Shown here piece after piece: positions 30,698 through 48,542 of a DNA stretch of 64,000 bases. This DNA is from an uncultured Gemmatimonadota bacterium (GTDB lineage: Bacteria > JAAXHH01): NCBI GenBank assembly GCA_951812955.1, contig OX638340.1, forward strand, positions 992,001 through 1,056,000. Direction: 5' to 3'. The translations under genes and the position numbers were made by a program. The notes beneath the pieces are model-generated. The model ran no database searches. It saw only the letters and a list, made by a program, of their open reading frames with translations, and was not told the DNA's origin. How positions within the stretch are numbered: position 1 is the first letter of the stretch; each line of letters starts with the position of its first letter.

Positions 30698-30809
30698 GAT
30701 AGTCCTCGGGGTGCAACTGGAATCGCCTGTGTGGATGCCATCAGCGGTTGCTGGTTATGATATGCAGTAACCGCCGCTAAATCAAACCAATTCTGGGTAC
30801 GGCGTAACG

Positions 30810-30838
30810 CTTGACAGGGCACGGTCGGTCTTCTAATT
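30810..30838 (+). promoter_or_regulatory. Possible sigma70-type promoter for trmB (TTGACA-N17-TAATTT)
   Basis: TTGACA at 30810-30815 is a consensus -35. The -10 is weak. It lies ~20 nt upstream of the trmB start. Confidence 0.25.
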
Positions 30839-30857
30839 TGCCCAGTGAATTGTCCAG

Positions 30858-31532: not shown

Positions 31533-31601
31533 CCGGAACGCTCGACCCACTCCCAAATTGCCGGTCTTCATCAGACCCGGACCAACAGAGAGGAACATTA
31601 C

Positions 31602-32060
31602 ATGCTTCAGGCAGGCGATCCAGCACCCGATTTCACGATGGAGGCGGACAAGGGCGGAAGCGTTTCGCTCGCGGATTTAAGGGGAAAAACGGTAGTCCTG
31701 TACTTCTATCCGAAGGACGACACGCCCGGATGCACCCGGGAGTCCTGTGCCTTCAGAGACCACTACTCCACGTTTCAGAATCAGGATGTCCTGATCTACG
31801 GCGTCAGTTGCGACAGCATCCCTTCCCACGAGAAATTCAGCGCGAAATTCGACCTGCCTTTCCCGCTGCTGAGCGACCCGGACACCTCCGTCTCCACGGC
31901 TTACGGCGTGTACAAGGAAAAGACGAACTACGGCCGGAAGTACATGGGGATCGAGCGGTCGACCTTCGTCATCGACGGGGAAGGCCGTATTTGCAGGATC
32001 TACCGCAACGTGAAGGTGGACGGCCACGTGGAGAAGGTGCTCGACGAAGTGTCCGGCTGA
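31602..32060 (+). CDS. bcp: Thiol peroxidase Bcp (peroxiredoxin Q family)
   Basis: GDPAPDFTMEADKGGSVSLADLRGKTVVLYFYPKDDTPGCTRESCAFRD. This shows the peroxidatic Cys in the TPGC context and the resolving Cys five residues later. Confidence 0.8.
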   Translation: MLQAGDPAPDFTMEADKGGSVSLADLRGKTVVLYFYPKDDTPGCTRESCAFRDHYSTFQNQDVLIYGVSCDSIPSHEKFSAKFDLPFPLLSDPDTSVSTAYGVYKEKTNYGRKYMGIERSTFVIDGEGRICRIYRNVKVDGHVEKVLDEVSG

Positions 32061-32094
32061 AGCGCGCACGGCCCGGCGATCCGTCGCCCGACTG

Positions 32095-32961
32095 TTAGAG
32101 CATGAACCGTTTCAGGTGGGCCCGCGCGCGGACGAAACCCTCCTCTTCCAGATCCCACGAGCTATAATACCGGCCGTCCTCATGCTCGATGCTGAGTATG
32201 CCGTCGTACCCGAAATCCTCGAGCCGTTTCATGATTTGCGCCCAGTCGGCCAGGCCCTCGCCGGGTATACAATACCGCCAGTAGCCTTCGCCGAAAGCGA
32301 CCCGTGATTCGAAGGAAGGTTTGATTCTACCGTAAAGATAGAGCGCTTCCTCGTCGAACATGGTGTCCTTGGCGTGGACATGGTGTGCCCGGTGGCCGAA
32401 TTCATTCAGGAAGCGCATCGGGTCCACACCCAGCCTGATCAGGTGCGAGGGATCGTAGTTGATCCCGAAGGCGGGCGATGGGCAGGCCTCGAACATGGCA
32501 CGCAGCATCTCGGGCGTCGCGCCGATCCGCTCATGGTGGGTAGATCCACCGGGCCAGCCCTCTAAGGCGATGGTCGCCCCTCTGGATTCGGCAAAATCCG
32601 CGATATCGGGCATGGTGCGCTTCCACTGTTCGAAAGTCGCATCGCGTCCCTGGGCGGGGTCCCCGGGTGCCGGCGCCACATAGAACATATTGGTCACGCC
32701 ATGGTCCACCGCGCGCTGTATGGAATCCCTGGACTCGCCCAGCGCATGTTCCCGCTGTCCGGCGTCTTCACTCAACAGTTCCGTGCCGGCGACCAGGTCT
32801 ACCTGGCCGATGGCCACGCCGTGTGTTTCGGCGGTCCGGACCTTGTCCCCGTCGATCCGGGAAATGTCGATCGTATCGAACCCCTTTTCGGCCATCCACG
32901 CGCAGACCGACTCAAATGGCATTTCGTTCAATCGGCCCGTAGTGCGAATCCCCACTCTCAT
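32095..32961 (-). CDS. Sugar phosphate isomerase/epimerase (xylose isomerase-like TIM barrel)
   Basis: 288 aa with the metal-binding pattern typical of the AP endonuclease 2 / xylose isomerase-like TIM family. Confidence 0.6.
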   Translation of the reverse strand: MRVGIRTTGRLNEMPFESVCAWMAEKGFDTIDISRIDGDKVRTAETHGVAIGQVDLVAGTELLSEDAGQREHALGESRDSIQRAVDHGVTNMFYVAPAPGDPAQGRDATFEQWKRTMPDIADFAESRGATIALEGWPGGSTHHERIGATPEMLRAMFEACPSPAFGINYDPSHLIRLGVDPMRFLNEFGHRAHHVHAKDTMFDEEALYLYGRIKPSFESRVAFGEGYWRYCIPGEGLADWAQIMKRLEDFGYDGILSIEHEDGRYYSSWDLEEEGFVRARAHLKRFML

Positions 32962-32993
32962 CGTGACTCTCCTTCAGATTTGAAAAAACGTCG

Positions 32994-33021
32994 TTGACAC
33001 AGTCGCCGGTCAATGTATATG
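32994..33021 (+). promoter_or_regulatory. Putative sigma70 promoter for bioY (TTGACA-N16-TATATG). It overlaps a short inverted repeat TTGAC-N10-GTCAA.
   Basis: A consensus -35 hexamer is preceded by an A-tract. It lies ~85 nt upstream of the bioY ATG. Confidence 0.3.
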
Positions 33022-33104
33022 AACCTGCATGGGGTCGCAAGGCAAAGCAGCCCTTTGAAACCGCAGACCATATGTGATTCGACTGGGACTGCAGAAAGGA
33101 CAAT

Positions 33105-33656
33105 TTGACCAGGAACACGCGACTGGCCACGGCCTCCCTGATGGCGGCGCTGACCGCGGTGAGCGCCTACGTAATCCTGCCCATTGGCCCGGTGCCGATC
33201 ACCATGCAGACCTGCTTCGTCCTGCTCTCCGGCGCGGTGCTCGGCAGCCGCTGGGGCGCCGGAAGCCAGATCGTCTACGTTTGTCTCGGCCTGGCGGGCA
33301 TCCCGGTATTCGCCGGCGGCATGAGCGGCCCCGGAGTCGTGATTTCGCCGACTTTCGGCTACATCGCAGGATTCGTGCTGGCCGCGTTTCTGACCGGAAA
33401 ATACCTGGAGCGTTTTTCCAGGAACAGCGTAACGCATCTCGCCGCGGGCATGCTGATCGGGCAGGCGGCCATCTGGGGATGCGGCCTGTTGTACCTCCAT
33501 GCCTATTTCAATCTGTACGCGGGCGTGGAGACCTCGTGGCGCGGCGCCATTGCCATGGGACTGCTTCCCTTCATCCCCTTCGACCTGGTCAAGCTCGTAC
33601 TCGCGTTGTCCGTCAGCCGCACGTTGTCCAGGTATACGCCTTGGGAAACTGCATGA
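33105..33656 (+). CDS. bioY: Biotin transporter BioY (ECF-type S component). There is no adjacent bioMN.
   Basis: 183 aa with 5-6 TM helices. ...YVILPIGPVPITMQTCFVLLSGAVLG... is a typical BioY core. Confidence 0.75.
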   Translation: MTRNTRLATASLMAALTAVSAYVILPIGPVPITMQTCFVLLSGAVLGSRWGAGSQIVYVCLGLAGIPVFAGGMSGPGVVISPTFGYIAGFVLAAFLTGKYLERFSRNSVTHLAAGMLIGQAAIWGCGLLYLHAYFNLYAGVETSWRGAIAMGLLPFIPFDLVKLVLALSVSRTLSRYTPWETA

Positions 33657-33779
33657 GGTCTTGAGACCGGCGACCGCTCCCCTGCGCGAAGCGGCGGCAG
33701 ACACCTCGCTGTTGACACGACAACGGCGGATCAGTATAGTCTTTACCTTCCGGGATCGCGCGACAGCGCCGGTCCCATC

Positions 33780-35534
33780 ATGTACACAACATCTTCAGGT
33801 AATCCCATGAAGGAATGGACACGATCGATCCGGGTTGCGTGTTCGCGCTTTCCGGCCTTATCCGCGCGCGGCCGTATAGCCGCCGTCTCGACATGTCTGC
33901 TCGGGTTCCTGCTCGGATTCCTGCCGGCCGGTACGCTGACCGGCGCCGTCCCAGTGGTCAATTCCATTGGAAAACCGATGCCGCCGGACGCGGCGCCCCT
34001 GGACCAGCAGGTGTTCCGCTACACGCTGGTCGAGCCTCTGACCTTCGACGTCAGTATCAACATTTACGAGGGCCAGGGAGCGCTTACGCTGTTCGAGCGC
34101 CTGGTCATGCTCGACAAGAACCTGGAGCTGGTCGGCGCGGCGGCTTCCTCGTGGGAGCAGTCGGCGGACGGGCTTCGCTGGACGTTCAAACTCCGTCCCG
34201 ATGGGAGATGGAGTGATGGACGCAGGGTCACGGCACACGACTACGAATACACCTACAAGCGGTTCCTCGATCCGGCCGTGGCAAGTCCCTACGCCTTCTT
34301 CTACTACGAAATCAAGGGCGCCCGCCCGTTCAACCAGGGCAGTGTTACCGATCCATCAACCGTGGGCGTGCGTGCCCTGGACGACCTCACGCTGGAGATC
34401 GAAACGGAGAAGCCCTGTCCCTATCTGCCCTTTATTGTGGCTTTCACCGGATCGGGACCGGTACCCCGGTGGCAGGTGGAAAAACACGGGGTACTTTGGA
34501 GCGAAGCCGGGAACCTGGTTTCCAATGCGAGCTACACCCTATCTGAATGGCAAAAGGGCAGGCAGGCCACGCTGACCCTCAATCCCTACTATACCGGTCC
34601 CCATAAGGGGTATCTCGAGAAAATCGTCCAGATATTCACCACGGGACACCCGGGTACCCCGCCGTACGAGAACGACGAAATCGACTATCTCAGGGTCCTG
34701 TTGACCGACCTGCCGTTTATTGAGAACCATCCAACCCTGAAATCCGAGCTTGTATACTACGCCTTTCCGGAAACGTGGTATCTTTTTTTCAAGACCCGCG
34801 AGCCGCCATTCGACGATGTACGGGTGCGGCGGGCGATCAGCCACGCCATCGACCGCGAGGCCTTGTGCACCGTCGTGCTGCGAAATACGGGCGTACCCGC
34901 ATACTCCATGTTGCCTCCCAGATTCCCAGGCAGCGCGGATTCGTCCATACAGGCAATCCAGGCTTACGACACCGAACGCGCCAAGGCCCTGCTTGCCGAA
35001 GCGGGCTATCCCGATGGAAAGGGGTTTCCGGTCATCGATTTCTGGATAGGCAAGACCAATCCCCAGATCAGTTACACCGCCCAGGCCGTGCAGGCGATGC
35101 TTGGAAATACCCTGGGGATGCGTATGCGGATGAGAGGTTCGGAGGACAAGGTGTACCGGGACAACATGTACAAGTGGAACATCCCCATGGGGCTTGGAGG
35201 ATTCAATGCGGACTATCCCGATCCGAACAACCTGCTCGGTATGGTATGGCGTTCGCAGCCGAGGGGATTCGGGCGGCAGGACTGGCGTAACGAGGGTTTC
35301 GACCAGCTGATCGACGCGGCGGCGGACGAGTTGGATCACAACAAGCGCATGAGCATGTACCAGGAAGCGGAACGGATCCTGGCGGAAGACGCCGGCGGCG
35401 CATTTCTGTACCATAACATGACGGTGGATCTGCGCAAACCCTATCTCAAAGGGCTCGAAGTCAACAAGTTCGGATACACGATGTTCTCCTGGATCGGCAT
35501 CATGCATACGAAAATGTACATCGCCCGGCATTAG
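33780..35534 (+). CDS. Extracytoplasmic solute-binding protein, family 5 (peptide/nickel/opine type; OppA/DppA/MppA-like). No cognate permease or ATPase genes are adjacent.
   Basis: 584 aa. An N-terminal hydrophobic anchor is followed by the family-5 SBP fold (...YAFFYYEIKGARPFNQG..., ...VIDFWIGKTNPQ...). Confidence 0.7.
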   Translation: MYTTSSGNPMKEWTRSIRVACSRFPALSARGRIAAVSTCLLGFLLGFLPAGTLTGAVPVVNSIGKPMPPDAAPLDQQVFRYTLVEPLTFDVSINIYEGQGALTLFERLVMLDKNLELVGAAASSWEQSADGLRWTFKLRPDGRWSDGRRVTAHDYEYTYKRFLDPAVASPYAFFYYEIKGARPFNQGSVTDPSTVGVRALDDLTLEIETEKPCPYLPFIVAFTGSGPVPRWQVEKHGVLWSEAGNLVSNASYTLSEWQKGRQATLTLNPYYTGPHKGYLEKIVQIFTTGHPGTPPYENDEIDYLRVLLTDLPFIENHPTLKSELVYYAFPETWYLFFKTREPPFDDVRVRRAISHAIDREALCTVVLRNTGVPAYSMLPPRFPGSADSSIQAIQAYDTERAKALLAEAGYPDGKGFPVIDFWIGKTNPQISYTAQAVQAMLGNTLGMRMRMRGSEDKVYRDNMYKWNIPMGLGGFNADYPDPNNLLGMVWRSQPRGFGRQDWRNEGFDQLIDAAADELDHNKRMSMYQEAERILAEDAGGAFLYHNMTVDLRKPYLKGLEVNKFGYTMFSWIGIMHTKMYIARH

Positions 35535-35569
35535 AATCGATTACCCGGAAGGAGCGCACGGAACTTGAT

Positions 35570-36436
35570 ATGCTCGGAAGGAGTGAACGGACCTTGAACG
35601 TGGAAGGGATCGTTACCGAAGACATCGTACGACAATACCGGGAAGACGGCGCGGTGTGCATCAGAAAGGCCTTCGATCCGCACTGGGTGTCCGTCGTGGA
35701 AGCCGGCGTGTCACGCAACGTGGCAGAGCCCAGCGACTATGCGGGCGTTCTGAAAGCGGGCGAGGAAGACAGGGGCGGGTTCTTCGACGACTACTGCAAC
35801 TGGCAGCGGATTCCCGAATACGGCGACTTCGTGTACGCGTCACCCGCGGGGGCCATGACGGCGCAGCTGATGGCATCGGGGAGCTCAGTATTCTATCACG
35901 AGCATCTGCTGATCAAGTGGCCCGGCACGCTCAAGCGGACGCCCTGGCACCACGACCAGCCCTATTACCCGGTGAACGGCCGGCAGAACGTATCCCTCTG
36001 GATGCCACTGGACCCGGTTTCGAAAGCGTCCTGCGTACAGTTCATCAGGGGTTCCCACAACTGGGACCGCTGGTTCGTCCCCCGCAAGTTCGCCAGCGAG
36101 ACCAATTACGCCCTCGCGGACGCCTCGGCGAAGCCGATGCTCGGTGACCGGCCCTTCGAGGACGTGCCGCCCATCGACGAACACCTGGAAGACTACGATA
36201 TCCTCGCGTGGGACATGGAACCCGGCGACGTCATCGCCTTTCACATGTGCACGCTGCACGGCGCGGCCGGCAACCAGTCCCTCTCCGATGCGCGGCGCGT
36301 CCTGGCCACGCGCTGGCTCGGTGACGACACCCGGTTTACCGACAGGCCCTGGGAGATTTCTCCTAAGGTGACGGGAGGTCTGGCCCCGGGAGATCCCATG
36401 GCCTGCGACCAGTTCCCGCTGGTCTGGTCAGCATAA
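35570..36436 (+). CDS. Phytanoyl-CoA dioxygenase (PhyH) family Fe(II)/2-oxoglutarate-dependent oxygenase
   Basis: WHHDQPYYP contains the HxD ligand pair. A distal His lies in AFHMCTLHGAAGN. The length is 288 aa. Confidence 0.65.
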   Translation: MLGRSERTLNVEGIVTEDIVRQYREDGAVCIRKAFDPHWVSVVEAGVSRNVAEPSDYAGVLKAGEEDRGGFFDDYCNWQRIPEYGDFVYASPAGAMTAQLMASGSSVFYHEHLLIKWPGTLKRTPWHHDQPYYPVNGRQNVSLWMPLDPVSKASCVQFIRGSHNWDRWFVPRKFASETNYALADASAKPMLGDRPFEDVPPIDEHLEDYDILAWDMEPGDVIAFHMCTLHGAAGNQSLSDARRVLATRWLGDDTRFTDRPWEISPKVTGGLAPGDPMACDQFPLVWSA

Positions 36437-36449
36437 AGAAGGAACCCAC

Positions 36450-37283
36450 ATGAACCATCAGTTAACGACCGAGCAGATCGCGTCTTACAGGGAAAACGGC
36501 TTTCTGATCATAGAGGATTTCCTGAATGAATCCGAACTGGAGACCTGGCGGTCGGCAGTGGAGGAAGCGGTGGCGTTGCGGGACGAGAACCGGCTGCCGG
36601 AGGGATCCTACCACCTGGACAGGAAGGTAACGGCGGGGGATGAAGCCGTATTCCGGCAGCGGATCAACCTGTGGATGGATCATGCCGGCGTTCGCACGCT
36701 GATGCTGGACAGTAGGCTGGGCAGAATGGCGGCCGACCTGGAAGGCGTCGAAGGAATACGGATCTGGCACGACCAGGCCCTGATCAAGCTGCCGTGGGCG
36801 AATCCCACCACCTGGCATCAGGACAATACCAAGTGGTCCTTCGTGTCAGACCACTCCATCACGATCTGGGTCGCCCTCGACGAGGTAACCATCCAGAACG
36901 GCTGCATGTTTTTCATGCCCGGTTCCCAAAAGAAACGGCGCGACGATTACCCGGCGGCGGGGAATCACGTGGGCGCCATGTTCGAAGCTTATCCCGATCT
37001 CGGCGCGATGGAACCCGTGCCCGTCGTCATGCCGGCGGGGGGCTGTTCCTTTCACAACGGACTGATCGTGCACGCCGCCAATGCAAATATGACGCCCTAT
37101 CCGCGAAGGGCCTTTACCTGCGCCTACATGCCCGACCACAGCCGTTTCAACGGCATACCCAATGTCCTTCCCAAGCGGATCCTGAATACCATTCAAATTG
37201 GCGATCCGCTTGAAGATGGAGACCAGAACCCGCTGATCCACACCTACGACCCGAAACGCGAAGGCCTCACCGGCCCCGTGTGA
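36450..37283 (+). CDS. Second PhyH-family Fe(II)/2OG oxygenase, a paralogue of the preceding gene
   Basis: WHQDNTKW (HxD) and FHNGLIVHAANAN (distal His). The start lies 14 nt after the previous stop. Confidence 0.65.
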   Translation: MNHQLTTEQIASYRENGFLIIEDFLNESELETWRSAVEEAVALRDENRLPEGSYHLDRKVTAGDEAVFRQRINLWMDHAGVRTLMLDSRLGRMAADLEGVEGIRIWHDQALIKLPWANPTTWHQDNTKWSFVSDHSITIWVALDEVTIQNGCMFFMPGSQKKRRDDYPAAGNHVGAMFEAYPDLGAMEPVPVVMPAGGCSFHNGLIVHAANANMTPYPRRAFTCAYMPDHSRFNGIPNVLPKRILNTIQIGDPLEDGDQNPLIHTYDPKREGLTGPV

Positions 37284-37295
37284 GGAGGTACATCG

Positions 37296-40004
37296 ATGAA
37301 CCGGTTTACCGTCCTGCCACTGTTATGCCTGATTCTTCTCTGCGGAACGATCTCCGGCGTTTCAAAAGCGCAGGACTTCGAGTATTGGCCCGGCACCGAA
37401 TACGATGCTTCGGTACCCACCGCGGAGGAGATCCTGGGCTACCGGATCGGTGACCGCATCACGCCCCACGCGGGCCTGATGAAATACCTGGAAGCGCTCG
37501 AGTCGGCGATGCCCGACCAGGTGCATATTCTCGAATACGCACAGTCCTGGGAAAGGCGCAGACTCGTCTATGCTTTCGTGGGATCGGCGGAACACATCGG
37601 CGCACTGGCGGCCATCGGCGAAGGCATGGAACGGCTGGCGGACCCGAGAATAACGTCCCGCGCCAGCGCCGACAGCCTGATTGCCTCCATGCCGGTAATT
37701 GTGAATCTCAGCTACAGCGTGCACGGAAACGAGATCTCCCCTTCGGATGCGGCGCTGCTCACGGCCTACCACCTGCTGGCGGCCCGGAACGACCCTGTCG
37801 TCGACCGGATCCTCAAAGAGACGATCGTGATGATCGATCCGGTCCAGAATCCCGATGGGCGGGACCGGTTCGTCCATAATTTCGAGATCGCCGAAGGACT
37901 GGAGCCGAATGCCAGTCCGCTTGCGGCCGAGCACAACGAACCCTGGCCCGGGGGGCGGACCAACCATTACTACTTCGACCTGAACCGCGACTGGATTTCG
38001 TTGAACCATCCCGAGACCCTGGGGAGGGTGAAGGTTCTGCAGGAGTATTTCCCGCCGGTCTTCGTCGACCTCCACGAAATGGGATCCAATGCCACCTATT
38101 ACTTCGCGCCAGAGGCCATTCCCTACAATCCGCACCTGGCCAGGGACCAGCGGGAGAGTCTCCAGCTCTTCGGAAAAAACAACGCGAAGTGGTTCGACCA
38201 TTTCGGATTCTCGTACTTCACGAGGGAAGTGTTCGACGCCTTCTATCCGGGTTACGGCGCGAGTTGGCCGTCCTACTACGGCAGCGTGGCCATGACGTAT
38301 GAACAGGCGTCGGCCCGGGGACTCGTCGTCCGAAGAAGCGACGAGTCGGTCATGCATTTCCGGGACACGGTGCGGCATCACTTCGTCGCTTCCATCGCCA
38401 CCAGCGAAACGGCGGCGAGCAACCGGGAGCAGCTACTGGCGGACTTCTATGCCTACCGGCAGTCGGCGATTGAAGAAGGCCGCAGCGAAGATATCCGGTC
38501 CTACATCCTGCCGCGCAGGTTGGCCGGCAACACCTCGGGAGTGGACAAGCTGGCCTGGCTCATGGCTTATCACGGCGTGGAGGTCCAGCAGGCCGGTTCG
38601 GACTTCCGGGCGGGAGGGAAGAACTATCCCGCGGGCAGTTACGTCATATCTCTCGCCCAGCCCGCCAAGCGCCTGATTCGCACGCTCATGGATACGCACG
38701 TACCGATGAGCGAGGACTTTATCGCGGAACAGGAGCGGCGCAGGAGCAAGGGCTTAGGCGACCAGATATACGACGTGACCGCGTGGTCCTTTCCGCTGAT
38801 GTACAACGTCGAAACCGTGGCCGTGGACCGCCAGGTCGAGGGAAATCTCACCATGGTCGATCCCGCCCTGGTTCCGCCGGGATCGATCACGGGAGGCCGC
38901 GCGGAAGTAGCCTATCTGGTTCCCTGGGGCACCCAGGCCGCGGGTCGGCTGCTGGCCGCTTCGCTGAGGGCGGGACTCCGCGCATTCAGTACCGACCTGG
39001 CGTTCGCGCAGGGGGACCGGCGCTACCCGACCGGCACGCTGATCTTCAAGGTCAAGGACAACCCGGATCACATGCACGAAACGTTGGCGGAGATCGCCGT
39101 CTCATCCGGAGCGGAAGTCATCGCGACCGATACCGGGTGGGTGGATGAAGGGCCTAATTTCGGCAGCAACAACGTCGTGTATATGCGCAAGCCCCGCATC
39201 GCCCTGGCGTGGGACAGGCCGACCCGGGCCTACAACGCCGGCGCCACCCGTTTCGTCGTGGAACGCCAGATCGGGTACCCGGTGACGCCTATCCGGACGC
39301 GCCAGATTGCCACTGCCGACCTGAGGGACTTCGATGTACTGCTGCTGCCCGATCCCGGGTTCGGCGCCACTTATGAGGACGTACTCGGCGAACGGGGAAC
39401 CAGGCGGATAAGGGACTGGGTCCGTACCGGCGGCACGGTGGTTGGCCTGGGCAGCGGCGCCACGGCCTTCCTCGCGGGTGGTATGACCGGACTTCTTTCG
39501 ACGGCCAGAGAGGACCAGGCCAAAGAGGACGGCGAAGGCGACGGCGATACCGGTGACGGAGATGCTGCCGGCAGGATATTCCGTACGGAAGAAGAATACC
39601 TGAGGGCGTTGAAGTCCGATGACTCCGCGCCGCCGGCCACGCAGGGCGTCCTCCTCAAGGCCGGGCTCGATCCCGACCACTGGTTGGCCGCCGGCAGGGA
39701 CAGCACCGTGAACGCCCTGGTCAGCGGCAGCTCGATCTTTACTCCGCTCAAGCTGGACGAAGGAAATAACGTGGCCGTCTTTCTGGGTCCCGACGAAGTA
39801 CTCGCCAGTGGGTTCGCGTGGGAAGGCAGCACGAAACAGTTGGCCTACAAGCCTTTGCTCATGGAAGAACGACACGGCCGCGGCCTGGCCATCGGGTTTA
39901 CGGCCGACCCGAACTTCAGGGCGTACATGGACGGTCTGAACATCCTGTTCCTCAACGCGATATTTCGAGGCCCGGCCCATTCGGGAGCGGCCGTGACCGA
40001 GTAG
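37296..40004 (+). CDS. Secreted zinc carboxypeptidase of the M14 family (902 aa) with a long C-terminal extension
   Basis: A signal peptide MNRFTVLPLLCLILLCGTISG is present. HGNE is the HxxE Zn motif in SYSVHGNEISPSD. NPDGRD and the HEMGS region are also present. Confidence 0.7.
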   Translation: MNRFTVLPLLCLILLCGTISGVSKAQDFEYWPGTEYDASVPTAEEILGYRIGDRITPHAGLMKYLEALESAMPDQVHILEYAQSWERRRLVYAFVGSAEHIGALAAIGEGMERLADPRITSRASADSLIASMPVIVNLSYSVHGNEISPSDAALLTAYHLLAARNDPVVDRILKETIVMIDPVQNPDGRDRFVHNFEIAEGLEPNASPLAAEHNEPWPGGRTNHYYFDLNRDWISLNHPETLGRVKVLQEYFPPVFVDLHEMGSNATYYFAPEAIPYNPHLARDQRESLQLFGKNNAKWFDHFGFSYFTREVFDAFYPGYGASWPSYYGSVAMTYEQASARGLVVRRSDESVMHFRDTVRHHFVASIATSETAASNREQLLADFYAYRQSAIEEGRSEDIRSYILPRRLAGNTSGVDKLAWLMAYHGVEVQQAGSDFRAGGKNYPAGSYVISLAQPAKRLIRTLMDTHVPMSEDFIAEQERRRSKGLGDQIYDVTAWSFPLMYNVETVAVDRQVEGNLTMVDPALVPPGSITGGRAEVAYLVPWGTQAAGRLLAASLRAGLRAFSTDLAFAQGDRRYPTGTLIFKVKDNPDHMHETLAEIAVSSGAEVIATDTGWVDEGPNFGSNNVVYMRKPRIALAWDRPTRAYNAGATRFVVERQIGYPVTPIRTRQIATADLRDFDVLLLPDPGFGATYEDVLGERGTRRIRDWVRTGGTVVGLGSGATAFLAGGMTGLLSTAREDQAKEDGEGDGDTGDGDAAGRIFRTEEEYLRALKSDDSAPPATQGVLLKAGLDPDHWLAAGRDSTVNALVSGSSIFTPLKLDEGNNVAVFLGPDEVLASGFAWEGSTKQLAYKPLLMEERHGRGLAIGFTADPNFRAYMDGLNILFLNAIFRGPAHSGAAVTE

Positions 40005-40125
40005 GCAAACCGAGCGCCCGAATCGACCTCGGTGAAGCCGGCGCATTATCGAAACGGCCGGGGAACAGATCCGCGACCCGGTGGCAGTCTGATAGAACAA
40101 CTCCCGAAGAAAGGCGGTCTGTGGC

Positions 40126-41133
40126 ATGTCCTCCATTCCCATGCGTAACACCCCGCCGGACCATGGTATCAGGGTGCCTTACGAAACCCATTCTGCATTT
40201 ATCGCGGAACTTTTCGCCGCGGCCGGCATGAGACGCGGTGAAGCCGGGTTGATGGCCAGGATCCTTGCCACGGCCGACAAACGCTGTGTGTACAGCCACG
40301 GCACACAGCAGGCGCTCGGGTATTTGCCGAAGCTTCGTGACGGCGAGGTGAATCCACGCCCAAACGTCACCGCGGTTCGCGAATCGGACACCGTCGTGGT
40401 CCTGGACGGAGACGGCGGCATGGGATACGGACCGTCCCACCGGGGTATGGAAACCGCCATCGAAAAAGCCCTGGCCCATGGCCTTGGCGCGGCCACCACG
40501 CGGAACCATTATCATTTCGGCGCGGCAGGGAACTACTCCCGCATGGCCCTGGAACATGGGTGCGTGGGATGGGCACTGTCCACCCACCGCGTCGCGCTCG
40601 ATCCTGACAGCGTGATCATGTCCGCAAGCGGCGGTTCGCCCATGAGCCTGGCCTTCCCGACGCGGAGCCAGCCTCCCCTGGTGCTCGACATGGCCGCGGT
40701 TTTCATGGGATACAAGGACGAACTGTTCCAGGAATTCTATGCCTTGTTCGCCAAGAGCCTGGGTCTCGCGGTCGCCTTGCAGGCGCTCGGGGGCATCCTG
40801 GCCGGCATCTGGAGGCCTGAATTCCAACCTCCCCGGACGAAATGGGAATCCAACCAGGGCGCTTTCCTGCTGGCCATGAAGATCGATCACTTCATGGATC
40901 TGGACGAGTTTGAGCGATCACTGGACGATTTCGTATCGAAGGCGAGGAACATGAGGCCGTTCCCTGGCATGCCATCGGCGGAACTGCCTGGTGGGATGGA
41001 GTGGCGGTGGGAAAAGGAAAATGATGAGACGGGGGTGCCGTTGAGCGACGAACACCGCGTGAGGCTGGAGGAGATCGCGGATACGTTCAACGTAGAGCCG
41101 CCCTACGAGTCGTTCGAATCCACGCGGTTCTGA
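40126..41133 (+). CDS. Ldh_2 family (malate/L-lactate/L-sulfolactate dehydrogenase type 2) NAD(P)H-dependent oxidoreductase
   Basis: 335 aa. ...HGTQQALGYLPKLRDGEVNPRP...GDGGMGYGPSH... is characteristic of the Ldh_2 fold. The family includes ureidoglycolate dehydrogenase and pyrroline/piperideine-2-carboxylate reductases. Confidence 0.65.
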   Translation: MSSIPMRNTPPDHGIRVPYETHSAFIAELFAAAGMRRGEAGLMARILATADKRCVYSHGTQQALGYLPKLRDGEVNPRPNVTAVRESDTVVVLDGDGGMGYGPSHRGMETAIEKALAHGLGAATTRNHYHFGAAGNYSRMALEHGCVGWALSTHRVALDPDSVIMSASGGSPMSLAFPTRSQPPLVLDMAAVFMGYKDELFQEFYALFAKSLGLAVALQALGGILAGIWRPEFQPPRTKWESNQGAFLLAMKIDHFMDLDEFERSLDDFVSKARNMRPFPGMPSAELPGGMEWRWEKENDETGVPLSDEHRVRLEEIADTFNVEPPYESFESTRF

Positions 41134-41187
41134 TACGGACTGCCTTTCCATTCCATACAGATTACCGGGGCGTTTAGCCGGCAGGGA

Positions 41188-41604
41188 TCAAGCGGTCGCC
41201 TCCTTGAACCAGGTTTCGTGCACGCGCAGCCATTCCAGTCCGTTCGGCATTGCATCATTGCGTCGGAATATCACGGTGCTGTGCCTGGAAGTGGTTTCTC
41301 CGCCTTCTTCCTGCCATTCTTCGTACTCCGCTATAACGAGTTCGTGATCTTCTGCCAGTATGCGGACGTTCTCGATCCAGATGCGTATACCCGGCCGGCC
41401 GGTGTGGGCTTCGTACAGGACTTTCAGCAGGGGTTCCCGCTCCACCTTTCCGCCATGCGGCATGACGATCACAAAGGCTCTAGCGAGCACGGTCCCCATT
41501 CGTTCGAACGCTTCGGTGGTCCTGGGGACACGACCGTTGAACCAGGATTCGAAACACTGGTGCAAGGCGTCGATTTCGTTTCGGCAGGAAGCGATCAGCT
41601 GCAT
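41188..41604 (-). CDS. SnoaL-like / DUF4440 (NTF2-fold) small protein
   Basis: 138 aa, in the size range of a SnoaL-like polyketide-cyclase-like domain. Confidence is low. Confidence 0.35.
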   Translation of the reverse strand: MQLIASCRNEIDALHQCFESWFNGRVPRTTEAFERMGTVLARAFVIVMPHGGKVEREPLLKVLYEAHTGRPGIRIWIENVRILAEDHELVIAEYEEWQEEGGETTSRHSTVIFRRNDAMPNGLEWLRVHETWFKEATA

Positions 41605-41697
41605 GGTTGATCCATTGTAAAGGCTATTAGGTTCGGGTGGTTAATTCTAGTTATCTTATTGAATTTATTGAAATAAGGTTTTATTCGATCGGAGGAT

Positions 41698-42240
41698 TCA
41701 CCGGCCTACCTTGAAGCCCACCATGGCGTAGACCGCGGTCGTGCTCACGCCCTTGTCCAGGTTGATGTATCTTCCCTCGATCCCCACGAACGCAATACCG
41801 AGCGAGGTCCCGACAAAAACGCCCGGCTGCGCGTAAAAGGTATTCGTCGTCCTGGTGATATCCGTCCTGGTATCATCCTCCAGGTTCATCGACTTCTCGG
41901 AATCCTGCGCCCGTCCCACTCCGATCATCGCGCGCACCAGAATGGGAGACGATACCAGCGTCACGCCCGCGTCCACCCCGTATAACAGCAGGGATTTCTC
42001 TCCGTCGTCCCCGGTTTTCGCAAGGTGATAGGTCGCTCTCGCACCGACGTGAACAGTTCTGATTCCGGTCGGCAGGCTAACGATTACACTGCCGCCCCCG
42101 CCTCTCTCGTATTTTTCCGTGGCCTGTCCGCCGTGAAAACCGAACTCGGCGCCCTGGGCGTGGGTCCGTTCCGGGGTGACGGCGGCCATGAGCCACATCA
42201 GGCAGACCGCGCGACAGATCAACTGCAAGAAAGTCATCAT
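41698..42240 (-). CDS. Small outer-membrane beta-barrel protein (OmpW/opacity-like)
   Basis: A signal peptide is followed by alternating hydrophobic beta-strand segments (...GVDAGVTLVSSPILVRAMIGVG..., ...AVYAMVGFKVGR) over 180 aa. Confidence 0.4.
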   Translation of the reverse strand: MMTFLQLICRAVCLMWLMAAVTPERTHAQGAEFGFHGGQATEKYERGGGGSVIVSLPTGIRTVHVGARATYHLAKTGDDGEKSLLLYGVDAGVTLVSSPILVRAMIGVGRAQDSEKSMNLEDDTRTDITRTTNTFYAQPGVFVGTSLGIAFVGIEGRYINLDKGVSTTAVYAMVGFKVGR

Positions 42241-42577
42241 TCGTTCCCGGGCAATCTCGAACTAGTCTTCGATGCCGCATCACGTTCCCGGACAATCCAG
42301 CCTGCGCCCTTCACTCCGCGTTACCATCTCGAGAGGATAGCAGGAGCTATGATACCCAAGTAATATGGTCCGCGTCCAATACTTTCCATTTATTCTCTCC
42401 CAGCCGCGACGCCAGGACGCTGAATTGAGCCTGCAAACCCCTACTGTTATCGTTTGTAATCGCGCATTCGTTTGACCCTCAATCTAAATTCCAGTATTTT
42501 GGGAACGAGACACGATCCCGGCATCGGTCTGCCTGAAGAGGCCACGATTACCATAGCAGTTTTCGGAACTCTTCACA

Positions 42578-44779
42578 TTGAATCCAACATCCAAATCGGT
42601 CATTCCCGCGCTCTCAGCCGGACTTACTTCGGGTCTGGGACTTCTGGTTGCCCAGGTTGCCTTCGGCAGCTTCATTTTCTCGGGGGCCCTGGCGCCCTAC
42701 GCTTCACAGGGCGTGGGCCTGGTGCTGTTCGGGAACTTCGCGGCGTGTCTGGTCATCGCTCTTTTGGGTGGTTTCCGCGGGGCTATCGCGGGGCTGTCGC
42801 CCGCGCTGGTCATCGGCATGGCCGTGATCGGCTCCTCCCTGGACGCCGAGGGTCACGCGCTGTTCGCGACCGCATCCGTCGCCCTGATATTCTGTGCGGC
42901 GACCACGGGCGTGTGCTGTCTCGCGGTCGGCCGGTTCCGGCTCGCCAACCTGTTGCGCTTTATACCGTATCCCGTGGCCGGGGGATTCGTGGCCGGAATT
43001 GGCGGGGCCGTGTGCCTGGCGGCCCTGTCCCTGATGGGCGCAGACCCGGATTGGCTGGCAATGCCCGCTCTGTTCGAACCCTCCGTTTTATGGAAGTGGG
43101 TGCCGGGAGTAGTCTTTGGCGTCTTGCTCTACCTCTCCATGAAGACCTGGCGCAACCCACTTATCCTTCCCATGGGTGTGTTACTGGCTGTAGGTGCATA
43201 TCATTTCGCACTCAACAACCTCGGCATTTCGGGAGAAGAGGCACGGACCGCGGGATTGCTACTTACGAGCACGGCGGAAGGCAGCCTGTGGCCGGCGTTA
43301 GGGCCTGCCGATCTGTCCAATGTCAACTGGGCTTCGCTGACCTCGCAGATCCCCAACATGCTGGCGCTGATGCTGGTGGCGTTTATAAGCATCATCATGA
43401 ATATCGCCGGACTCGAAATGGCGACGAACCAGGAACTGAACTGGGACCAGGAGTTCAGGGTGACGGGACTGGCAAGCGTGCTTGCGGGACTGGGCGGGGG
43501 GACCGTGGCGACGCTTGTCGTTCCCGCGTCGCTTCGAAGCAAGTTGTTCGGTGCGACAACCCGGATGACCGGGGTGGTCGCTGCACTCGTTATCGGCGTG
43601 GCCCTTGTACTGGGCGACGGCATGCTGGAGATCGTACCCGCGGCGCTCGTGGGCGGAATCCTGGTCTTCGCCGGCCTGGGCATGCTGGACGAAGGGCTTG
43701 TGAGAAGCCGAAGAAGGCTTCCGCGGATGGAGTATGGAATTGTTCTGGCGATGTTTGCGGTTGTCACGTCGCTCGGATTGATCGAGGGCGTAGCCGTCGG
43801 TATGCTGGCCACGCTGGTTTTCTTCGCCGTGCGGCTCAGCAGGGTTGACCCCATCGAATCAAGATTCACCGCGCAGGAACGAGAGAGCATAAAATCGAGA
43901 TCCATACCCGACCGGGCTATACTGCGCAGAGAAGGTGAGCGGATACAGGTATACAAGCTGCGTGGTTACATTTTCTTCGGCAGCGCCTACGCGCTCTCAG
44001 ATGAATTCAAGAACAGGTTAAGCGGCGATTCGAGACCGGTGTGCATCATGCTGGATTTCGCGGCCGTTTCAGGCCTCGACTTCTCGGCCGTGAACGCCAT
44101 GGGAAGGTTTCTGCAAGCGGCGAAAGCGTCCAGCGTACGTGTCGTGCTCAGCGCGTTGTCCGAGGGACTGAAAGACCGGTTCGAACGCAGCCTGCCGGCT
44201 TCGGTGTATGGCGAATTGCTGTGGGAACCCGACGCGGACCGCGGTCTCGAACGTTGCGAGGATATCCTGATCGAAACGTGGAACACCGAGTCCGGAGGGA
44301 CCGAAGAACGGCGAGAATCGCTGCTGAAACATTCCGCGGAAGAACTGGAACACTACCTCGATCGACAAATCGATTTCGAGAGCCTGACGGAATCACTGCA
44401 AGGGTGGCTGAACCCAAGCAAGTACGAAGCAGGCGAGGTCCTGGCCGGGCCGGGTGCTCCCACGGACCATCTGCAACTGATCCTTTCGGGCCGCGTATCC
44501 GGTTACGATACCAGGGCGACCCGCCTGTTCCAATGCGGGCCGGGTGACGCGATCTGGCCGAATGGCGCGCCGGGTCAGAAAGCACACCGCGTAGTGGCCA
44601 ATGTACACTGTCAAACGATGTTGCTATCGCCCGCGGTTCTTGGCCGGCTGGAGCAGAACGAACAGCAACTGGTACATGACCTTTACCGGTACTTGCTGGC
44701 CGGACGGCTTCGCAGCGAACGGGAAGCCGGAGCATCGTTTACGGATACTGACAGCAAGATGCAGGGAAAAGAACGATGA
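42578..44779 (+). CDS. SulP/SLC26-family anion transporter. It is fused to a STAS domain and a C-terminal degenerate cyclic-nucleotide-binding-like domain. The annotated start is a TTG; the true start is uncertain.
   Basis: SulP N-terminal motif region SAGLTSGLGLLVAQVAFGSFIFSGALAPY. TM core to ~aa 470. STAS (VYKLRGYIFFGSAYAL...VCIMLDFAAVSGLDFSAVNAMGRF...). cNMP-like tail (GEVLAGPGAPTDHLQLILSGRV...FQCGPGDAI). Confidence 0.7.
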   Translation: MNPTSKSVIPALSAGLTSGLGLLVAQVAFGSFIFSGALAPYASQGVGLVLFGNFAACLVIALLGGFRGAIAGLSPALVIGMAVIGSSLDAEGHALFATASVALIFCAATTGVCCLAVGRFRLANLLRFIPYPVAGGFVAGIGGAVCLAALSLMGADPDWLAMPALFEPSVLWKWVPGVVFGVLLYLSMKTWRNPLILPMGVLLAVGAYHFALNNLGISGEEARTAGLLLTSTAEGSLWPALGPADLSNVNWASLTSQIPNMLALMLVAFISIIMNIAGLEMATNQELNWDQEFRVTGLASVLAGLGGGTVATLVVPASLRSKLFGATTRMTGVVAALVIGVALVLGDGMLEIVPAALVGGILVFAGLGMLDEGLVRSRRRLPRMEYGIVLAMFAVVTSLGLIEGVAVGMLATLVFFAVRLSRVDPIESRFTAQERESIKSRSIPDRAILRREGERIQVYKLRGYIFFGSAYALSDEFKNRLSGDSRPVCIMLDFAAVSGLDFSAVNAMGRFLQAAKASSVRVVLSALSEGLKDRFERSLPASVYGELLWEPDADRGLERCEDILIETWNTESGGTEERRESLLKHSAEELEHYLDRQIDFESLTESLQGWLNPSKYEAGEVLAGPGAPTDHLQLILSGRVSGYDTRATRLFQCGPGDAIWPNGAPGQKAHRVVANVHCQTMLLSPAVLGRLEQNEQQLVHDLYRYLLAGRLRSEREAGASFTDTDSKMQGKER

Positions 44780-45668: not shown

Positions 45669-45757
45669 ATTGTGCTCCTGGAATGTGTGGATGAGGGTCG
45701 AAAACCAGCATCGTTCCTGCGCATACATCAACTCGGTTCCACGTTGCGATTAAACTG

Positions 45758-45786
45758 TTGATACCGTGGAAGACCACGTCTATTAT
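45758..45786 (+). promoter_or_regulatory. Near-consensus sigma70 promoter (TTGATA-N17-TATTAT, overlapping TATAAT) reading toward the LarA-like gene
   Basis: TTGATA at 45758-45763, an exact 17-nt spacer and TATTAT at 45781-45786. It sits in an AT-rich island within a 65% GC genome. Confidence 0.5.
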
Positions 45787-45816
45787 AATTGAACCTGCCG
45801 TCGGACCGGGCAGTTT

Positions 45817-45865: not shown

Positions 45866-45906
45866 TCCCCTTGTGCATCAAGTGGCCATCCCGAAAGTGG
45901 TTCGCG

Positions 45907-47463: not shown

Positions 47464-47485
47464 TTAAGCGCGCTAATGACAAGGA

Positions 47486-48511: not shown

Positions 48512-48542
48512 ATTGATATTTGCCTCGCCTGTTCGAAATGCT

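What the first reader, a model, noticed from the sequence alone, without database searches (positions are those of the whole stretch)
33780..41133. Operon of an orphan peptide-binding protein, two PhyH-type dioxygenases, a 902-aa secreted M14 carboxypeptidase and an Ldh_2 reductase
Five co-directional genes have 13-122-nt junctions. The SBP (family 5, the class that includes the murein-peptide binder MppA) has no ABC permease or ATPase genes nearby. It is followed by two paralogous Fe/2OG oxygenases of the phytanoyl-CoA dioxygenase family. Next is a very large secreted zinc carboxypeptidase; the M14 family includes murein peptide amidase MpaA. Last is an Ldh_2-family reductase, a family containing pyrroline/piperideine-2-carboxylate reductases. 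The combination suggests capture and trimming of a peptide or D-amino-acid-containing substrate, followed by hydroxylation and reduction. One possibility is cell-wall peptide or hydroxy-imino-acid salvage. I do not recognise it as a known pathway.
Basis: inference. Interest (0 to 1): 0.5.

Follow-up and report, generated by a model that had tools for sequence, protein, structure and literature searches.

The report
Lineage-restricted peptide-binder, oxygenase, carboxypeptidase, dehydrogenase operon
The five genes are a real operon with its own conserved promoter in one group of marine, sponge- and coral-associated bacteria, but the carboxypeptidase and one oxygenase are optional add-ons, so it is an ordinary uncharacterised nutrient-scavenging operon and not a demonstrated new pathway.

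Summary
All five ORFs and their Pfam families are confirmed. Three corrections apply. The conserved start of the binding-protein gene is 33807, not 33780. The two PhyH proteins are only 24% identical. A co-directional BioY gene (33105-33656) lies upstream but outside the unit.

A TTGACA-N17-TATAGT promoter at 33712-33740 is invariant in about 20 related genomes while its flanks have diverged. The variable M14-Ldh_2 spacer keeps only a ribosome-binding site. One transcription unit is therefore well supported.

The gene set occurs only in one marine lineage, labelled Gemmatimonadetes or Latescibacterota, and there the flanking genes are equally syntenic. One sub-lineage lost M14 by a clean in-frame deletion. 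Another carries a methyltransferase where PhyH1 sits. About 58 loci from other phyla, mostly Acidobacteriota, carry the M14 orthologue alone. 72 marine loci carry the Ldh_2 orthologue without the other four genes.

M14 is a carboxypeptidase A/B-like enzyme, not MpaA-like. Ldh_2 is closest to 2-hydroxyacid dehydrogenases, not imine reductases. The likely core is binder + PhyH2 + Ldh_2, with substrate unknown. The murein or hydroxy-imino-acid reading is not supported. Interest is low to moderate.

The parts
33712..33740 (+). Sigma-70-like promoter, TTGACA-17 nt-TATAGT, between the BioY stop codon and the start of the binding-protein gene
   Evidence: It matches 11 of 12 consensus positions. Both hexamers are invariant in all window-clade relatives and in L084. 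L001 and L093 have TTGACA-N17-TATACT at the same place. The surrounding intergenic sequence is highly diverged.
33807..35534 (+). Periplasmic family-5 solute-binding protein, OppA/MppA-like.
   Evidence: Pfam SBP_bac_5 at 3.5e-81. The best solved relatives are OppA (199 bits) and MppA (175 bits). The OppA Asp419 equivalent is conserved within NADYPDP. The conserved ATG is at 33807, and orthologues have Sec leaders.
35570..36436 (+). PhyH1, a cytoplasmic Fe(II)/2-oxoglutarate dioxygenase of the PhyH family. It is MysH-like and an accessory member of the operon.
   Evidence: Pfam PhyH at 5.7e-23. The best solved relative is MysH at 5.5e-30, aligned over residues 19-169 and 207-284. It has the WHHD motif at 126, a distal His at 230 and RRV at 242. 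In the L001/L092 sub-lineage an LCM methyltransferase occupies the slot between PhyH2 and M14 instead. Homologues in other phyla stand alone.
36450..37283 (+). PhyH2, a cytoplasmic Fe(II)/2-oxoglutarate dioxygenase of the PhyH family. It is only 24% identical to PhyH1 and is retained in every sub-lineage.
   Evidence: Pfam PhyH at 4.7e-34. The best solved relative is SnoK at 4.9e-22. It has the WHQD motif at 122, a distal His at 208 and RRA at 219. It is 24% identical to PhyH1. Homologues of 55-57% identity end complete SBP_bac_5 ABC operons in L088, L170 and L173.
37296..40004 (+). Secreted 902-aa M14 metallocarboxypeptidase: a carboxypeptidase A/B-like catalytic domain followed by a non-catalytic GATase1/ThuA-like C-terminal domain. 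It is an accessory member of the operon.
40126..41133 (+). Cytoplasmic Ldh_2-family NAD(P)-dependent oxidoreductase, closest to 2-hydroxyacid dehydrogenases
   Evidence: Pfam Ldh_2 at 6.4e-59. No NCBIfam equivalog cut-off is reached; the best is sulfolactate dehydrogenase at 116 of 500 bits. PDB matches: P. horikoshii malate dehydrogenase 130 bits, ComC 104 bits, DpkA 29.5 bits. The upstream spacer keeps only the ribosome-binding site AGAAAGGCGG.
41124..41143 (+). Weak terminator-like hairpin overlapping the Ldh_2 stop codon, at the convergent junction with the minus-strand NTF2-like gene
   Evidence: Found only by a consensus scan; it has 7 pairs and a poor T-tract. It was not tested further.
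33105..33656 (+). BioY (biotin ECF S-component). It is a co-directional neighbour upstream of the promoter and probably a separate unit.
   Evidence: Pfam BioY at 2.4e-41. It is 65% identical to the BioY of L084. The conserved promoter lies downstream of its stop codon.

Best explanation
This is a genuine operon with its own promoter. It is confined to one marine lineage labelled Gemmatimonadetes or Latescibacterota, found in sponges, corals and plankton. It is modular, not an obligate five-step pathway.

Shown:
- The genes from the binding protein to Ldh_2 share one conserved sigma-70-type promoter.
- The binding protein and M14 are exported. The two oxygenases and Ldh_2 are cytoplasmic.
- M14 and PhyH1 can be lost or exchanged without disturbing the rest.
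- The persistent core is binding protein + PhyH2 + Ldh_2.

Inferred:
- The OppA-like protein captures a ligand with an alpha-amino group, either a peptide or a peptide-like compound, in the periplasm. It hands the ligand to an Opp-type permease encoded elsewhere in the genome.
- Where present, the carboxypeptidase A/B-like M14 trims C-terminal residues outside the cytoplasm and so widens the supply of ligand.
- Inside the cell, PhyH2 (and PhyH1 where present) hydroxylates the imported compound or a released residue. PhyH1 resembles MysH, which alpha-hydroxylates an N-linked glycyl group and releases glyoxylate. An oxidative C-N cleavage that yields a 2-oxo acid is therefore the most likely chemistry.
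- Ldh_2, which most resembles malate and sulfolactate dehydrogenases, then interconverts the resulting 2-oxo and 2-hydroxy acid.

The exact substrate is unknown.
For: Operon:
- Junctions are 12-35 nt, plus one of 121 nt.
- The promoter is invariant across about 20 genomes.
- The M14-Ldh_2 spacer ranges from about 25 to more than 150 nt and keeps only the ribosome-binding site.
- No Rfam element is present.

Modularity:
- In L084/L141 a 56-aa ORF consists of Met-Phe plus the last 54 residues of M14, at 81% identity. It sits between intact PhyH2 and Ldh_2 genes.
- L001/L092 have the order SBP-PhyH2-LCM-M14-Ldh_2.
- L093 and the window clade have all five genes.

Link between binding protein and PhyH2: PhyH2 homologues of 55-57% identity lie at the 3' end of complete operons with an SBP_bac_5, two permeases and two ATPases, in L088, L170 and L173. 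The 73% homologue has an SBP_bac_5 gene 6 kb away.

Link between PhyH and Ldh_2: 18 of 72 loci with distant Ldh_2 orthologues carry PhyH-family genes. Seven of these genes are immediately upstream and co-directional. The comparison set of 59 M14-anchored loci (1 Mb) has none.

Peptide-type binder: OppA and MppA are the best solved relatives, and the Asp419 equivalent is conserved.

Catalytic competence: the M14 zinc ligands and catalytic Glu are invariant, and both PhyH proteins have HxD...H plus Arg.

MysH chemistry is taken from PMC10666671.
Against: - Conservation of the core cannot be separated from plain synteny. In every sub-lineage that has the operon, the flanking NAPRTase, FabV, PHP, AhpC, AP_endonuc_2 and BioY genes are conserved too.
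- The neighbouring PhyH genes at distant Ldh_2 loci are 31% identical or less to PhyH1 and PhyH2. PhyH density falls only about two-fold with distance from Ldh_2: 6.6 per 100 kb within 1.5 kb against 3.4 per 100 kb at 6-10 kb. The link is therefore at family level and weak.
- The control loci for that comparison come from different phyla.
- The SBP_bac_5 proteins next to distant PhyH2 homologues are not orthologues of this binding protein. Those loci also carry sulfatase, GMC oxidoreductase and epimerase genes, which hints at a non-peptide substrate.
- Distant Ldh_2 loci look carbohydrate-related: GH127, SBP_bac_1 with sugar-type permeases, and UxuA-like genes.
- No substrate was tested.
Confidence: 0.45

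Rival explanations
1. The operon is one of convenience. Two functionally unrelated modules share a strong promoter. The first is extracytoplasmic peptide scavenging by the OppA-like binder and the M14 carboxypeptidase. The second is cytoplasmic oxidation by PhyH2, PhyH1 and Ldh_2, perhaps together with the neighbouring AP_endonuc_2 TIM-barrel protein, acting on a non-peptide compound such as a sugar acid, an amino sugar or a sulfonated metabolite.
For: - Each gene travels alone outside this lineage.
- Distant Ldh_2 orthologues lie among GH127, UxuA-like, AP_endonuc_2, SDR, AKR, sugar-type ABC and carrageenase-like propeller genes.
- The closest solved relatives of PhyH2 (SnoK, SnoN, EvdO2) modify sugar moieties of natural products.
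- PhyH2 homologues are flanked by sulfatase, GMC oxidoreductase and epimerase genes.
- The best specific models for Ldh_2 are sulfolactate and malate dehydrogenases.
- In Acidobacteriota the only recurrent neighbour of M14 is an S9 peptidase, in 10 of 57 loci.
Against: - Spacers of 12-13 nt, with translational-coupling-like spacing, join PhyH1, PhyH2 and M14. One conserved promoter serves all five genes.
- PhyH2 homologues elsewhere recurrently end SBP_bac_5 ABC operons. This argues that a family-5 binder and PhyH2 do work on the same compound.
Confidence: 0.3
2. One reading: an integrated five-step salvage route for cell-wall (murein) peptides or hydroxy-imino acids. The peptide is bound, trimmed by M14, hydroxylated by both PhyH enzymes and reduced by an Ldh_2 imine reductase.
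For: - MppA is among the best solved relatives of the binding protein, at 175 bits.
- From general knowledge, the M14 family includes MpaA and the Ldh_2 family includes Pyr2C/Pip2C reductases.
- All five genes are co-transcribed in the window clade and in L093.
- Pro_racemase-family genes lie near PhyH2 homologues in L088 and L173.
Against: - M14 was cleanly deleted in a sister lineage that keeps the rest of the operon.
- PhyH1 is exchanged for a methyltransferase in another sub-lineage.
- DpkA is the weakest Ldh_2 match.
- No hydroxyproline dehydratase or epimerase gene, and no LdcA-type or Mpl-type murein-recycling gene, was seen in the window.
- M14 orthologues in about 58 loci from other phyla, mostly Acidobacteriota, have no such partners.
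Confidence: 0.1
3. The operon catabolises host- or plankton-derived N-substituted amino acids, such as opines like strombine and alanopine or mycosporine-like amino acids. The family-5 binder captures the conjugate. The MysH-like PhyH1 and/or PhyH2 alpha-hydroxylates the N-linked carboxyalkyl group, splitting it into an amine plus glyoxylate or another 2-oxo acid. Ldh_2 then reduces the oxo acid.
For: - PhyH1 is most similar to MysH, at 5.5e-30 and over nearly its full length. The proposed MysH reaction releases glyoxylate (PMC10666671).
- Ldh_2 is 2-hydroxyacid-dehydrogenase-like.
- From general knowledge, family-5 binders include opine and metallophore binders. NCBIfam gives a weak CntA hit.
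- The lineage lives in sponges and corals (record titles).
- The PhyH1 family has homologues of about 50% identity in marine invertebrates.
Against: - PhyH1 is the dispensable member of the operon.
- PhyH1 homologues also occur in ticks, cockroaches and mites, and in unrelated bacterial contexts.
- The binding protein is closest to OppA, not to opine binders.
- No MAA or opine genes are nearby.
- The idea rests on a match of only 108 bits to one characterised enzyme.
Confidence: 0.1

Closest known systems
E. coli/Salmonella OppA and MppA (periplasmic oligopeptide and murein-tripeptide binding proteins of the Opp ABC importer)
   Same: Same Pfam family. These are the best solved relatives, at 199 and 175 bits over about 460 residues. 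The Asp that binds the ligand's alpha-amino group is conserved. The protein has a periplasmic Sec leader.
   Different: No oppBCDF-type genes lie within 64 kb. The gene heads an operon of oxidoreductases, not of transporter subunits. The ligand is unknown.
E. coli mppA-mpaA murein-tripeptide recycling pair
   Same: A family-5 binder and an M14 enzyme are encoded close together.
Pancreatic-type carboxypeptidases A/B, carboxypeptidase D, and Thermoactinomyces carboxypeptidase T (M14A/B)
   Different: It has about 500 extra residues, including a GATase1/ThuA-like domain with no conserved nucleophile. There is no pro-segment match, no sequence-level PDB hit and no NCBIfam model. It belongs to an uncharacterised family of more than 6,900 members, mainly in Acidobacteriota and Gemmatimonadota.
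MysH (cyanobacterial Fe/2OG dioxygenase converting disubstituted mycosporine-like amino acids to palythines)
   Same: It is the best solved relative of PhyH1 (5.5e-30). The alignment covers both halves of the protein, and the HxD...H triad is present.
   Different: No mysABCD-type genes are nearby. The PhyH1 family is very large and occurs in animals and in unrelated bacterial contexts. The match is only 108 bits, about one-third identity by eye from the printed alignment.
Ldh_2 family 2-hydroxyacid dehydrogenases (archaeal MdhII, (R)-sulfolactate dehydrogenase ComC) and imine reductases (DpkA/LhpD)
   Same: The Pfam Ldh_2 score is above the cut-off, and the SHG catalytic-His motif is conserved.
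   Different: It falls below every NCBIfam equivalog cut-off. The C-terminal half is divergent. It is much closer to malate dehydrogenase and ComC than to DpkA.

Membership tests
Family-5 (cluster C) oligopeptide-binding proteins, OppA/MppA type | SBP_bac_5 domain scoring above the Pfam gathering score | tested here: met
   273.6 bits against a cut-off of 32.4.
Family-5 (cluster C) oligopeptide-binding proteins, OppA/MppA type | Asp that forms a salt bridge with the ligand's alpha-amino group (Asp419 of Salmonella OppA; its role is taken from general knowledge) | tested here: met
   The query motif NADYPDP aligns with CADYNEP of 1B05.
Family-5 (cluster C) oligopeptide-binding proteins, OppA/MppA type | Encoded next to the cognate ABC permease and ATPase genes | tested here: not met
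   tblastn with Opp-type permeases finds nothing in the 64-kb window, and the only ABC ATPase is MacB/FtsX-linked. No BPD_transp_1 gene lies within 8-10 kb in relatives.
Family-5 (cluster C) oligopeptide-binding proteins, OppA/MppA type | Binds oligopeptides | not testable with these tools
   This needs ligand-binding assays.
M14 metallocarboxypeptidases | Zinc ligands HxxE...H, the catalytic Glu, and the Asn-Arg pair that binds the substrate carboxylate | tested here: met
   H143, E146, H260, E336, N230 and R231 are invariant in 46 homologues.
M14 metallocarboxypeptidases | Carboxypeptidase A-type alpha/beta fold | tested here: met
MpaA-type murein peptide amidase (M14C) | Closest structural and sequence relationship is to MpaA, and the protein is cytoplasmic | tested here: not met
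PhyH-family Fe(II)/2-oxoglutarate dioxygenases | PhyH domain above the cut-off, the HxD...H iron triad, and a 2OG-binding Arg | tested here: met
   PhyH1 scores 82.8 bits and PhyH2 119 bits against a cut-off of 22. PhyH1 has WHHD at 126, His at 230 and RRV at 242. PhyH2 has WHQD at 122, His at 208 and RRA at 219.
MysH (palythine-forming dioxygenase) | Located in a mysA-D type MAA biosynthetic cluster | tested here: not met
   No ATP-grasp, DDGS/EEVS or O-methyltransferase gene is present among the Pfam-scanned ORFs of the window.
MysH (palythine-forming dioxygenase) | Acts on mycosporine-like amino acids | not testable with these tools
   The only evidence is 108 bits of similarity.
Ldh_2 oxidoreductases with named specificity (AllD, ComC/sulfolactate DH, DlgD, MdhII) | Score above the NCBIfam equivalog cut-off | tested here: not met
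   The best score is 116 bits for sulfolactate dehydrogenase, against a cut-off of 500. The others score 65-85 bits against cut-offs of 316-496.
Pyr2C/Pip2C reductase (DpkA/LhpD) of hydroxyproline and D-amino-acid pathways | Closest relationship is to DpkA-type enzymes, with an accompanying Pro_racemase-family dehydratase or epimerase gene | tested here: not met
   DpkA is the weakest of the 13 PDB matches, at 29.5 bits. No Pro_racemase hit was found in any scanned window ORF.
Operon (single transcription unit) | Shared promoter, short co-directional spacers, and no internal promoter or terminator | tested here: met
   This is sequence-level evidence only; transcripts were not examined.
Conserved functional gene cluster (co-conservation beyond shared ancestry) | The same gene set is found together in lineages where the flanking synteny has decayed | tested here: not met
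   All loci with the set also keep the flanking genes. 58 loci with distant M14 orthologues and 72 with distant Ldh_2 orthologues lack the partners.

The most novel reading that the evidence does not exclude
The operon encodes an undescribed catabolic route for N-substituted amino acids or modified peptides supplied by the animal host or by plankton, for example opines or mycosporine-like amino acids. A family-5 binding protein captures the conjugate. MysH-like Fe/2OG dioxygenases cleave the C-N bond by alpha-hydroxylation. An Ldh_2 dehydrogenase processes the released 2-oxo acid. The giant M14 enzyme acts as an optional periplasmic pre-processing step.
Probability: 0.1. Interest if true: 0.55.

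Novelty: new member of a known kind. Interest (0 to 1): 0.25.

Why it matters
If the core (binder, PhyH2, Ldh_2) does act on one compound, it would assign a first function to three large uncharacterised subfamilies. Each has thousands of members in marine bacteria, and PhyH1 also has invertebrate homologues. It would also point to a nutrient exchanged between sponges or corals and their Gemmatimonadota-like symbionts.

As it stands, the result is mainly a caution. The tidy five-gene layout reflects shared ancestry within one lineage. The most eye-catching member, the 902-aa carboxypeptidase, is a widespread stand-alone protein that the operon can lose.

Tried and rejected
- Exact-sequence look-ups of the window M14 and of P0001 found nothing on record.
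- A Rfam search of 31000-43000 at E<=1 found no riboswitch or leader.
- The minus-strand ORF 32958-33704 and the +-strand ORF 33074-33664 had no Pfam hits. The real gene is BioY, in another frame.
- I tested whether M14 has a conserved neighbourhood in Acidobacteriota that might reveal its role. Only an S9 peptidase recurs, in 10 of 57 loci.
- I tested whether PhyH1 homologues in other phyla share any partner. They do not.
- I looked for family-5 binders near distant Ldh_2 orthologues. Only 1 of 72 loci has one.
- I considered a hydroxyproline or collagen route. No Pro_racemase-type gene is in the window, and Ldh_2 is not DpkA-like.
- I considered natural-product tailoring, because of the SnoK-like oxygenase, the NTF2/SnoaL-like neighbour and the methyltransferase swap. 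No core biosynthetic gene was seen within 10 kb on either side.
- A 429-aa protein that recurs downstream of distant Ldh_2 genes has no Pfam or NCBIfam match and gave no clue.
- A literature search for sponge-symbiont PhyH genes and for this gene combination found nothing specific.

Full report
**1. What is in the sequence**

All are on the + strand, with spacers of 35, 13, 12 and 121 nt. Each matches the stated Pfam family well above its gathering score: SBP_bac_5, PhyH, PhyH, Peptidase_M14 and Ldh_2. No NCBIfam equivalog cut-off is reached by any of them.

Three corrections follow.
- The two PhyH proteins share only 24% identity. They are old paralogues from different subfamilies.
- The ATG at 33780 is absent from relatives that are 97-99% identical, whereas the ATG at 33807 is conserved in all of them. 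The binding protein probably starts at 33807.
- Immediately upstream on the same strand lies a BioY gene (33105-33656, TTG start, Pfam 2.4e-41). The 248-aa minus-strand ORF covering it is an antisense artefact.

No Opp-type permease or ATPase gene occurs anywhere in the 64-kb window. The single ABC ATPase is paired with a MacB/FtsX permease. 'Orphan' is therefore correct at this scale.

**2. Is it an operon?**

A near-consensus sigma-70-type promoter, TTGACA-17-TATAGT, lies at 33712-33740, between BioY and the binding-protein gene. I aligned this intergenic region from 21 related loci. Both hexamers are invariant in the window clade and in the planktonic relative L084. L001 and L093 have TTGACA-N17-TATACT at the same place. 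The surrounding sequence is barely alignable.

The only long spacer, between M14 and Ldh_2, varies from about 25 to more than 150 nt among relatives. It conserves nothing except the ribosome-binding site AGAAAGGCGG. No convincing internal terminator and no Rfam element was found. A single transcription unit running from about 33747 to 41133 is well supported at sequence level. BioY is a separate unit.

**3. Source and distribution**

The closest genomes are MAGs labelled Gemmatimonadetes or Candidatus Latescibacterota, several with isolate names that look sponge- or coral-derived, with chromosomes of about 3.7-4.0 Mb. Bracketed figures below are protein identity to the window gene.

With M14 as anchor, about 20 species-level genomes (M14 at least 83% identical) have all five genes. 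They also have every flanking gene tested, so this conservation says nothing about function.

Three more divergent sub-lineages are informative.
- L093 keeps all five genes at 60-72% identity.
- L001, L002 and L092 have SBP-PhyH2-LCM methyltransferase-M14-Ldh_2. PhyH1 is absent and a TIGR00027-type SAM methyltransferase sits between PhyH2 and M14.
- L084, L085 and L141 (Tara Oceans and other marine metagenomes) have SBP-PhyH1-PhyH2-[56-aa ORF]-Ldh_2. The 56-aa ORF is Met-Phe followed by the last 54 residues of M14 at 81% identity. This is a clean in-frame deletion of about 846 codons.

All of these sub-lineages still share the flanking AP_endonuc_2, AhpC and BioY genes, and in L084 also PHP, FabV and NAPRTase.

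Outside this lineage the set dissolves.
- About 58 loci, mostly Acidobacteriota with a few carrying other labels, have an M14 orthologue (51-63%) and none of the other four genes within 10 kb.
- 72 marine metagenome loci with Ldh_2 orthologues (39-58%) have no orthologue of the others.
- PhyH1 homologues (52-56%) stand alone in unrelated contexts.
- PhyH2 homologues (55-73%) are never next to an Ldh_2 gene.

**4. The individual proteins**

*Binding protein.* The best solved relatives are OppA (199 bits) and MppA (175 bits). The Asp that holds the peptide alpha-amino group in OppA is conserved (the role of Asp419 is from general knowledge). Orthologues have Sec leaders that end just before a conserved NSIGK.

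*PhyH1.* The best solved relative is MysH (5.5e-30), aligned over both halves of the protein. MysH is proposed to alpha-hydroxylate an N-linked glycyl group and release glyoxylate (PMC10666671). The PhyH1 family includes homologues of about 50% identity in invertebrate animals.

*PhyH2.* The best solved relative is SnoK (4.9e-22). Both PhyH proteins have HxD...H and the Arg, so they are hydroxylase-type and not halogenase-type.

*Ldh_2.* The closest matches are an archaeal malate dehydrogenase (130 bits) and sulfolactate dehydrogenase ComC (104 bits). The piperideine-2-carboxylate reductase DpkA is the weakest match (29.5 bits).

**5. Which links survive outside the lineage?**

Two family-level links do.

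First, PhyH2 homologues of 55-57% identity sit at the 3' end of complete operons containing SBP_bac_5, two permeases and two ATPases, in three genomes (L088, L170, L173). These operons are followed by sulfatase, epimerase, RraA-like and Pro_racemase or ComA genes. The 73% homologue has an SBP_bac_5 gene 6 kb away. Those binders are not orthologues of the window protein, and the three genomes may be related to one another.

Second, 18 of 72 loci with distant Ldh_2 orthologues contain PhyH-family genes: 24 genes in all, 7 of them immediately upstream and co-directional. None occurs in 1 Mb of M14-anchored loci. These PhyH genes are 31% identical or less to PhyH1 and PhyH2. Their density falls only about two-fold with distance from Ldh_2. 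The comparison set also comes from different phyla. This link is therefore weak.

The other neighbours of distant Ldh_2 genes are largely carbohydrate-type: GH127, SBP_bac_1 with sugar-type permeases, UxuA-like and AP_endonuc_2 TIM barrels, SDR and AKR.

**6. Interpretation**

The best-supported reading, with confidence about 0.45, is a real but modular, lineage-restricted operon. An exported OppA-like binder presumably serves a permease encoded elsewhere. An optional exported CPA/B-like carboxypeptidase is co-transcribed with cytoplasmic oxidoreductases. The persistent core is PhyH2 plus Ldh_2. By analogy with MysH, the most likely chemistry is hydroxylation next to nitrogen followed by handling of a 2-oxo or 2-hydroxy acid. 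Every step after 'co-transcribed' is inference.

The main rival (0.3) is that the peptide-scavenging pair and the oxidoreductases are functionally unrelated, and that the oxidoreductases act on a non-peptide compound. An opine or MAA N-dealkylation route (0.1) is the most novel reading that the evidence does not exclude.

**7. Verdict**

Its coherence as a five-gene pathway is not supported by comparative genomics. It is a new, uncharacterised member of a familiar kind: a scavenging operon led by a binding protein and built from known enzyme families. Interest is 0.25.

Noticed in passing
window 33105-33656 (+), overlapping the minus-strand ORF 32958-33704: A BioY (biotin ECF S-component) gene with a TTG start is hidden under a longer antisense ORF. 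It is conserved directly upstream of the operon in every sub-lineage but lies outside its promoter. A paper on marine Gemmatimonadota (PMC10469786) reads bioY as a sign of biotin import.
   Followed up: yes
window 37296-40004; loci L021-L083: The roughly 900-aa M14 protein with a GATase1/ThuA-like domain defines a very large family of more than 6,900 homologues. Members are 51-63% identical between Gemmatimonadota and Acidobacteriota. There is no solved structure by sequence search and no NCBIfam model. It is unusually well conserved for a secreted peptidase of unknown role.
   Followed up: partly
PhyH1, window 35570-36436; proteins P0176, P0189, P0191, P0205, P0209, P0228, P0234: The PhyH1 (MysH-like) family has homologues of 46-51% identity annotated in invertebrate genomes: acorn worm, barnacles, prawn, tick, cockroach, horseshoe crab and mite. 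This suggests either a conserved substrate or gene transfer or contamination. It was not examined.
   Followed up: no
loci L104-L151, e.g. L108 4203-5492: A 429-aa protein with no Pfam or NCBIfam match lies immediately downstream of Ldh_2 orthologues in 16 marine metagenome loci. It appears to be a conserved partner of that Ldh_2 clade. It is absent from the window.
   Followed up: partly
window 33741-33770: About 25 nt just downstream of the -10 hexamer (consensus TCTTTA.CCT.GC.CGGGATC) is conserved across the window clade, although the rest of the leader varies. It could be an operator or a 5'-UTR element. There is no Rfam match.
   Followed up: no
window 42578-44779 (+): A SulP-family permease with a STAS domain and a weak C-terminal cyclic-nucleotide-binding-like region lies between the orf180 gene and the RraA-like gene. 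In the planktonic relative L084 these two genes are adjacent, so the SulP gene differs between the lineages (gained here or lost there).
   Followed up: partly
window 723-4364 (-): A ClpC-type AAA+ ATPase is followed by an ATP:guanido phosphotransferase (McsB-like protein arginine kinase). This pairing is best known from Firmicutes.
   Followed up: no
window 16212-17675 (-): An M81 / MlrC-like metallopeptidase of the microcystinase C family (DUF1485 + MlrC_C).
   Followed up: no
window 44886-62167: A dense run of small-molecule catabolic genes: RraA-like aldolase, LarA-like, two GFO_IDH_MocA, a Zn-ADH, an NAD-epimerase, an MR_MLE enolase-superfamily protein, hydantoinase A/B (55672-59390), an amine oxidase and a Rieske/KshA-like oxygenase. 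RraA-like genes also recur near PhyH2 homologues in L084, L088, L170 and L173, but they are only 26-30% identical to the window gene.
   Followed up: partly
L003/L022 5259-9783 (Blastocatellia): In this acidobacterial genome the M14 orthologue follows Peptidase_Mx, an ATP-grasp protein (Dala_Dala_lig_C), an Amidohydro_3 D-aminoacylase-like gene and a 216-aa unknown. It is followed by beta-lactamase-fold genes and an S9 peptidase. This is a different, peptide-centred neighbourhood.
   Followed up: no
window 8892-10325 (+), 14114-16150 (-), 52185-53246 (+), 41698-42240 (-), 30777-31598 (-): ORFs of 180-678 aa with gene-like GC3 and no Pfam family. The ORF at 41698-42240 (orf180) is conserved next to the NTF2-like gene in every sub-lineage that has the operon. 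In L084 the homologous DNA at the position of 30777-31598 is read on the other strand, as a Methyltransf_4 (TrmB-like) gene.
   Followed up: no
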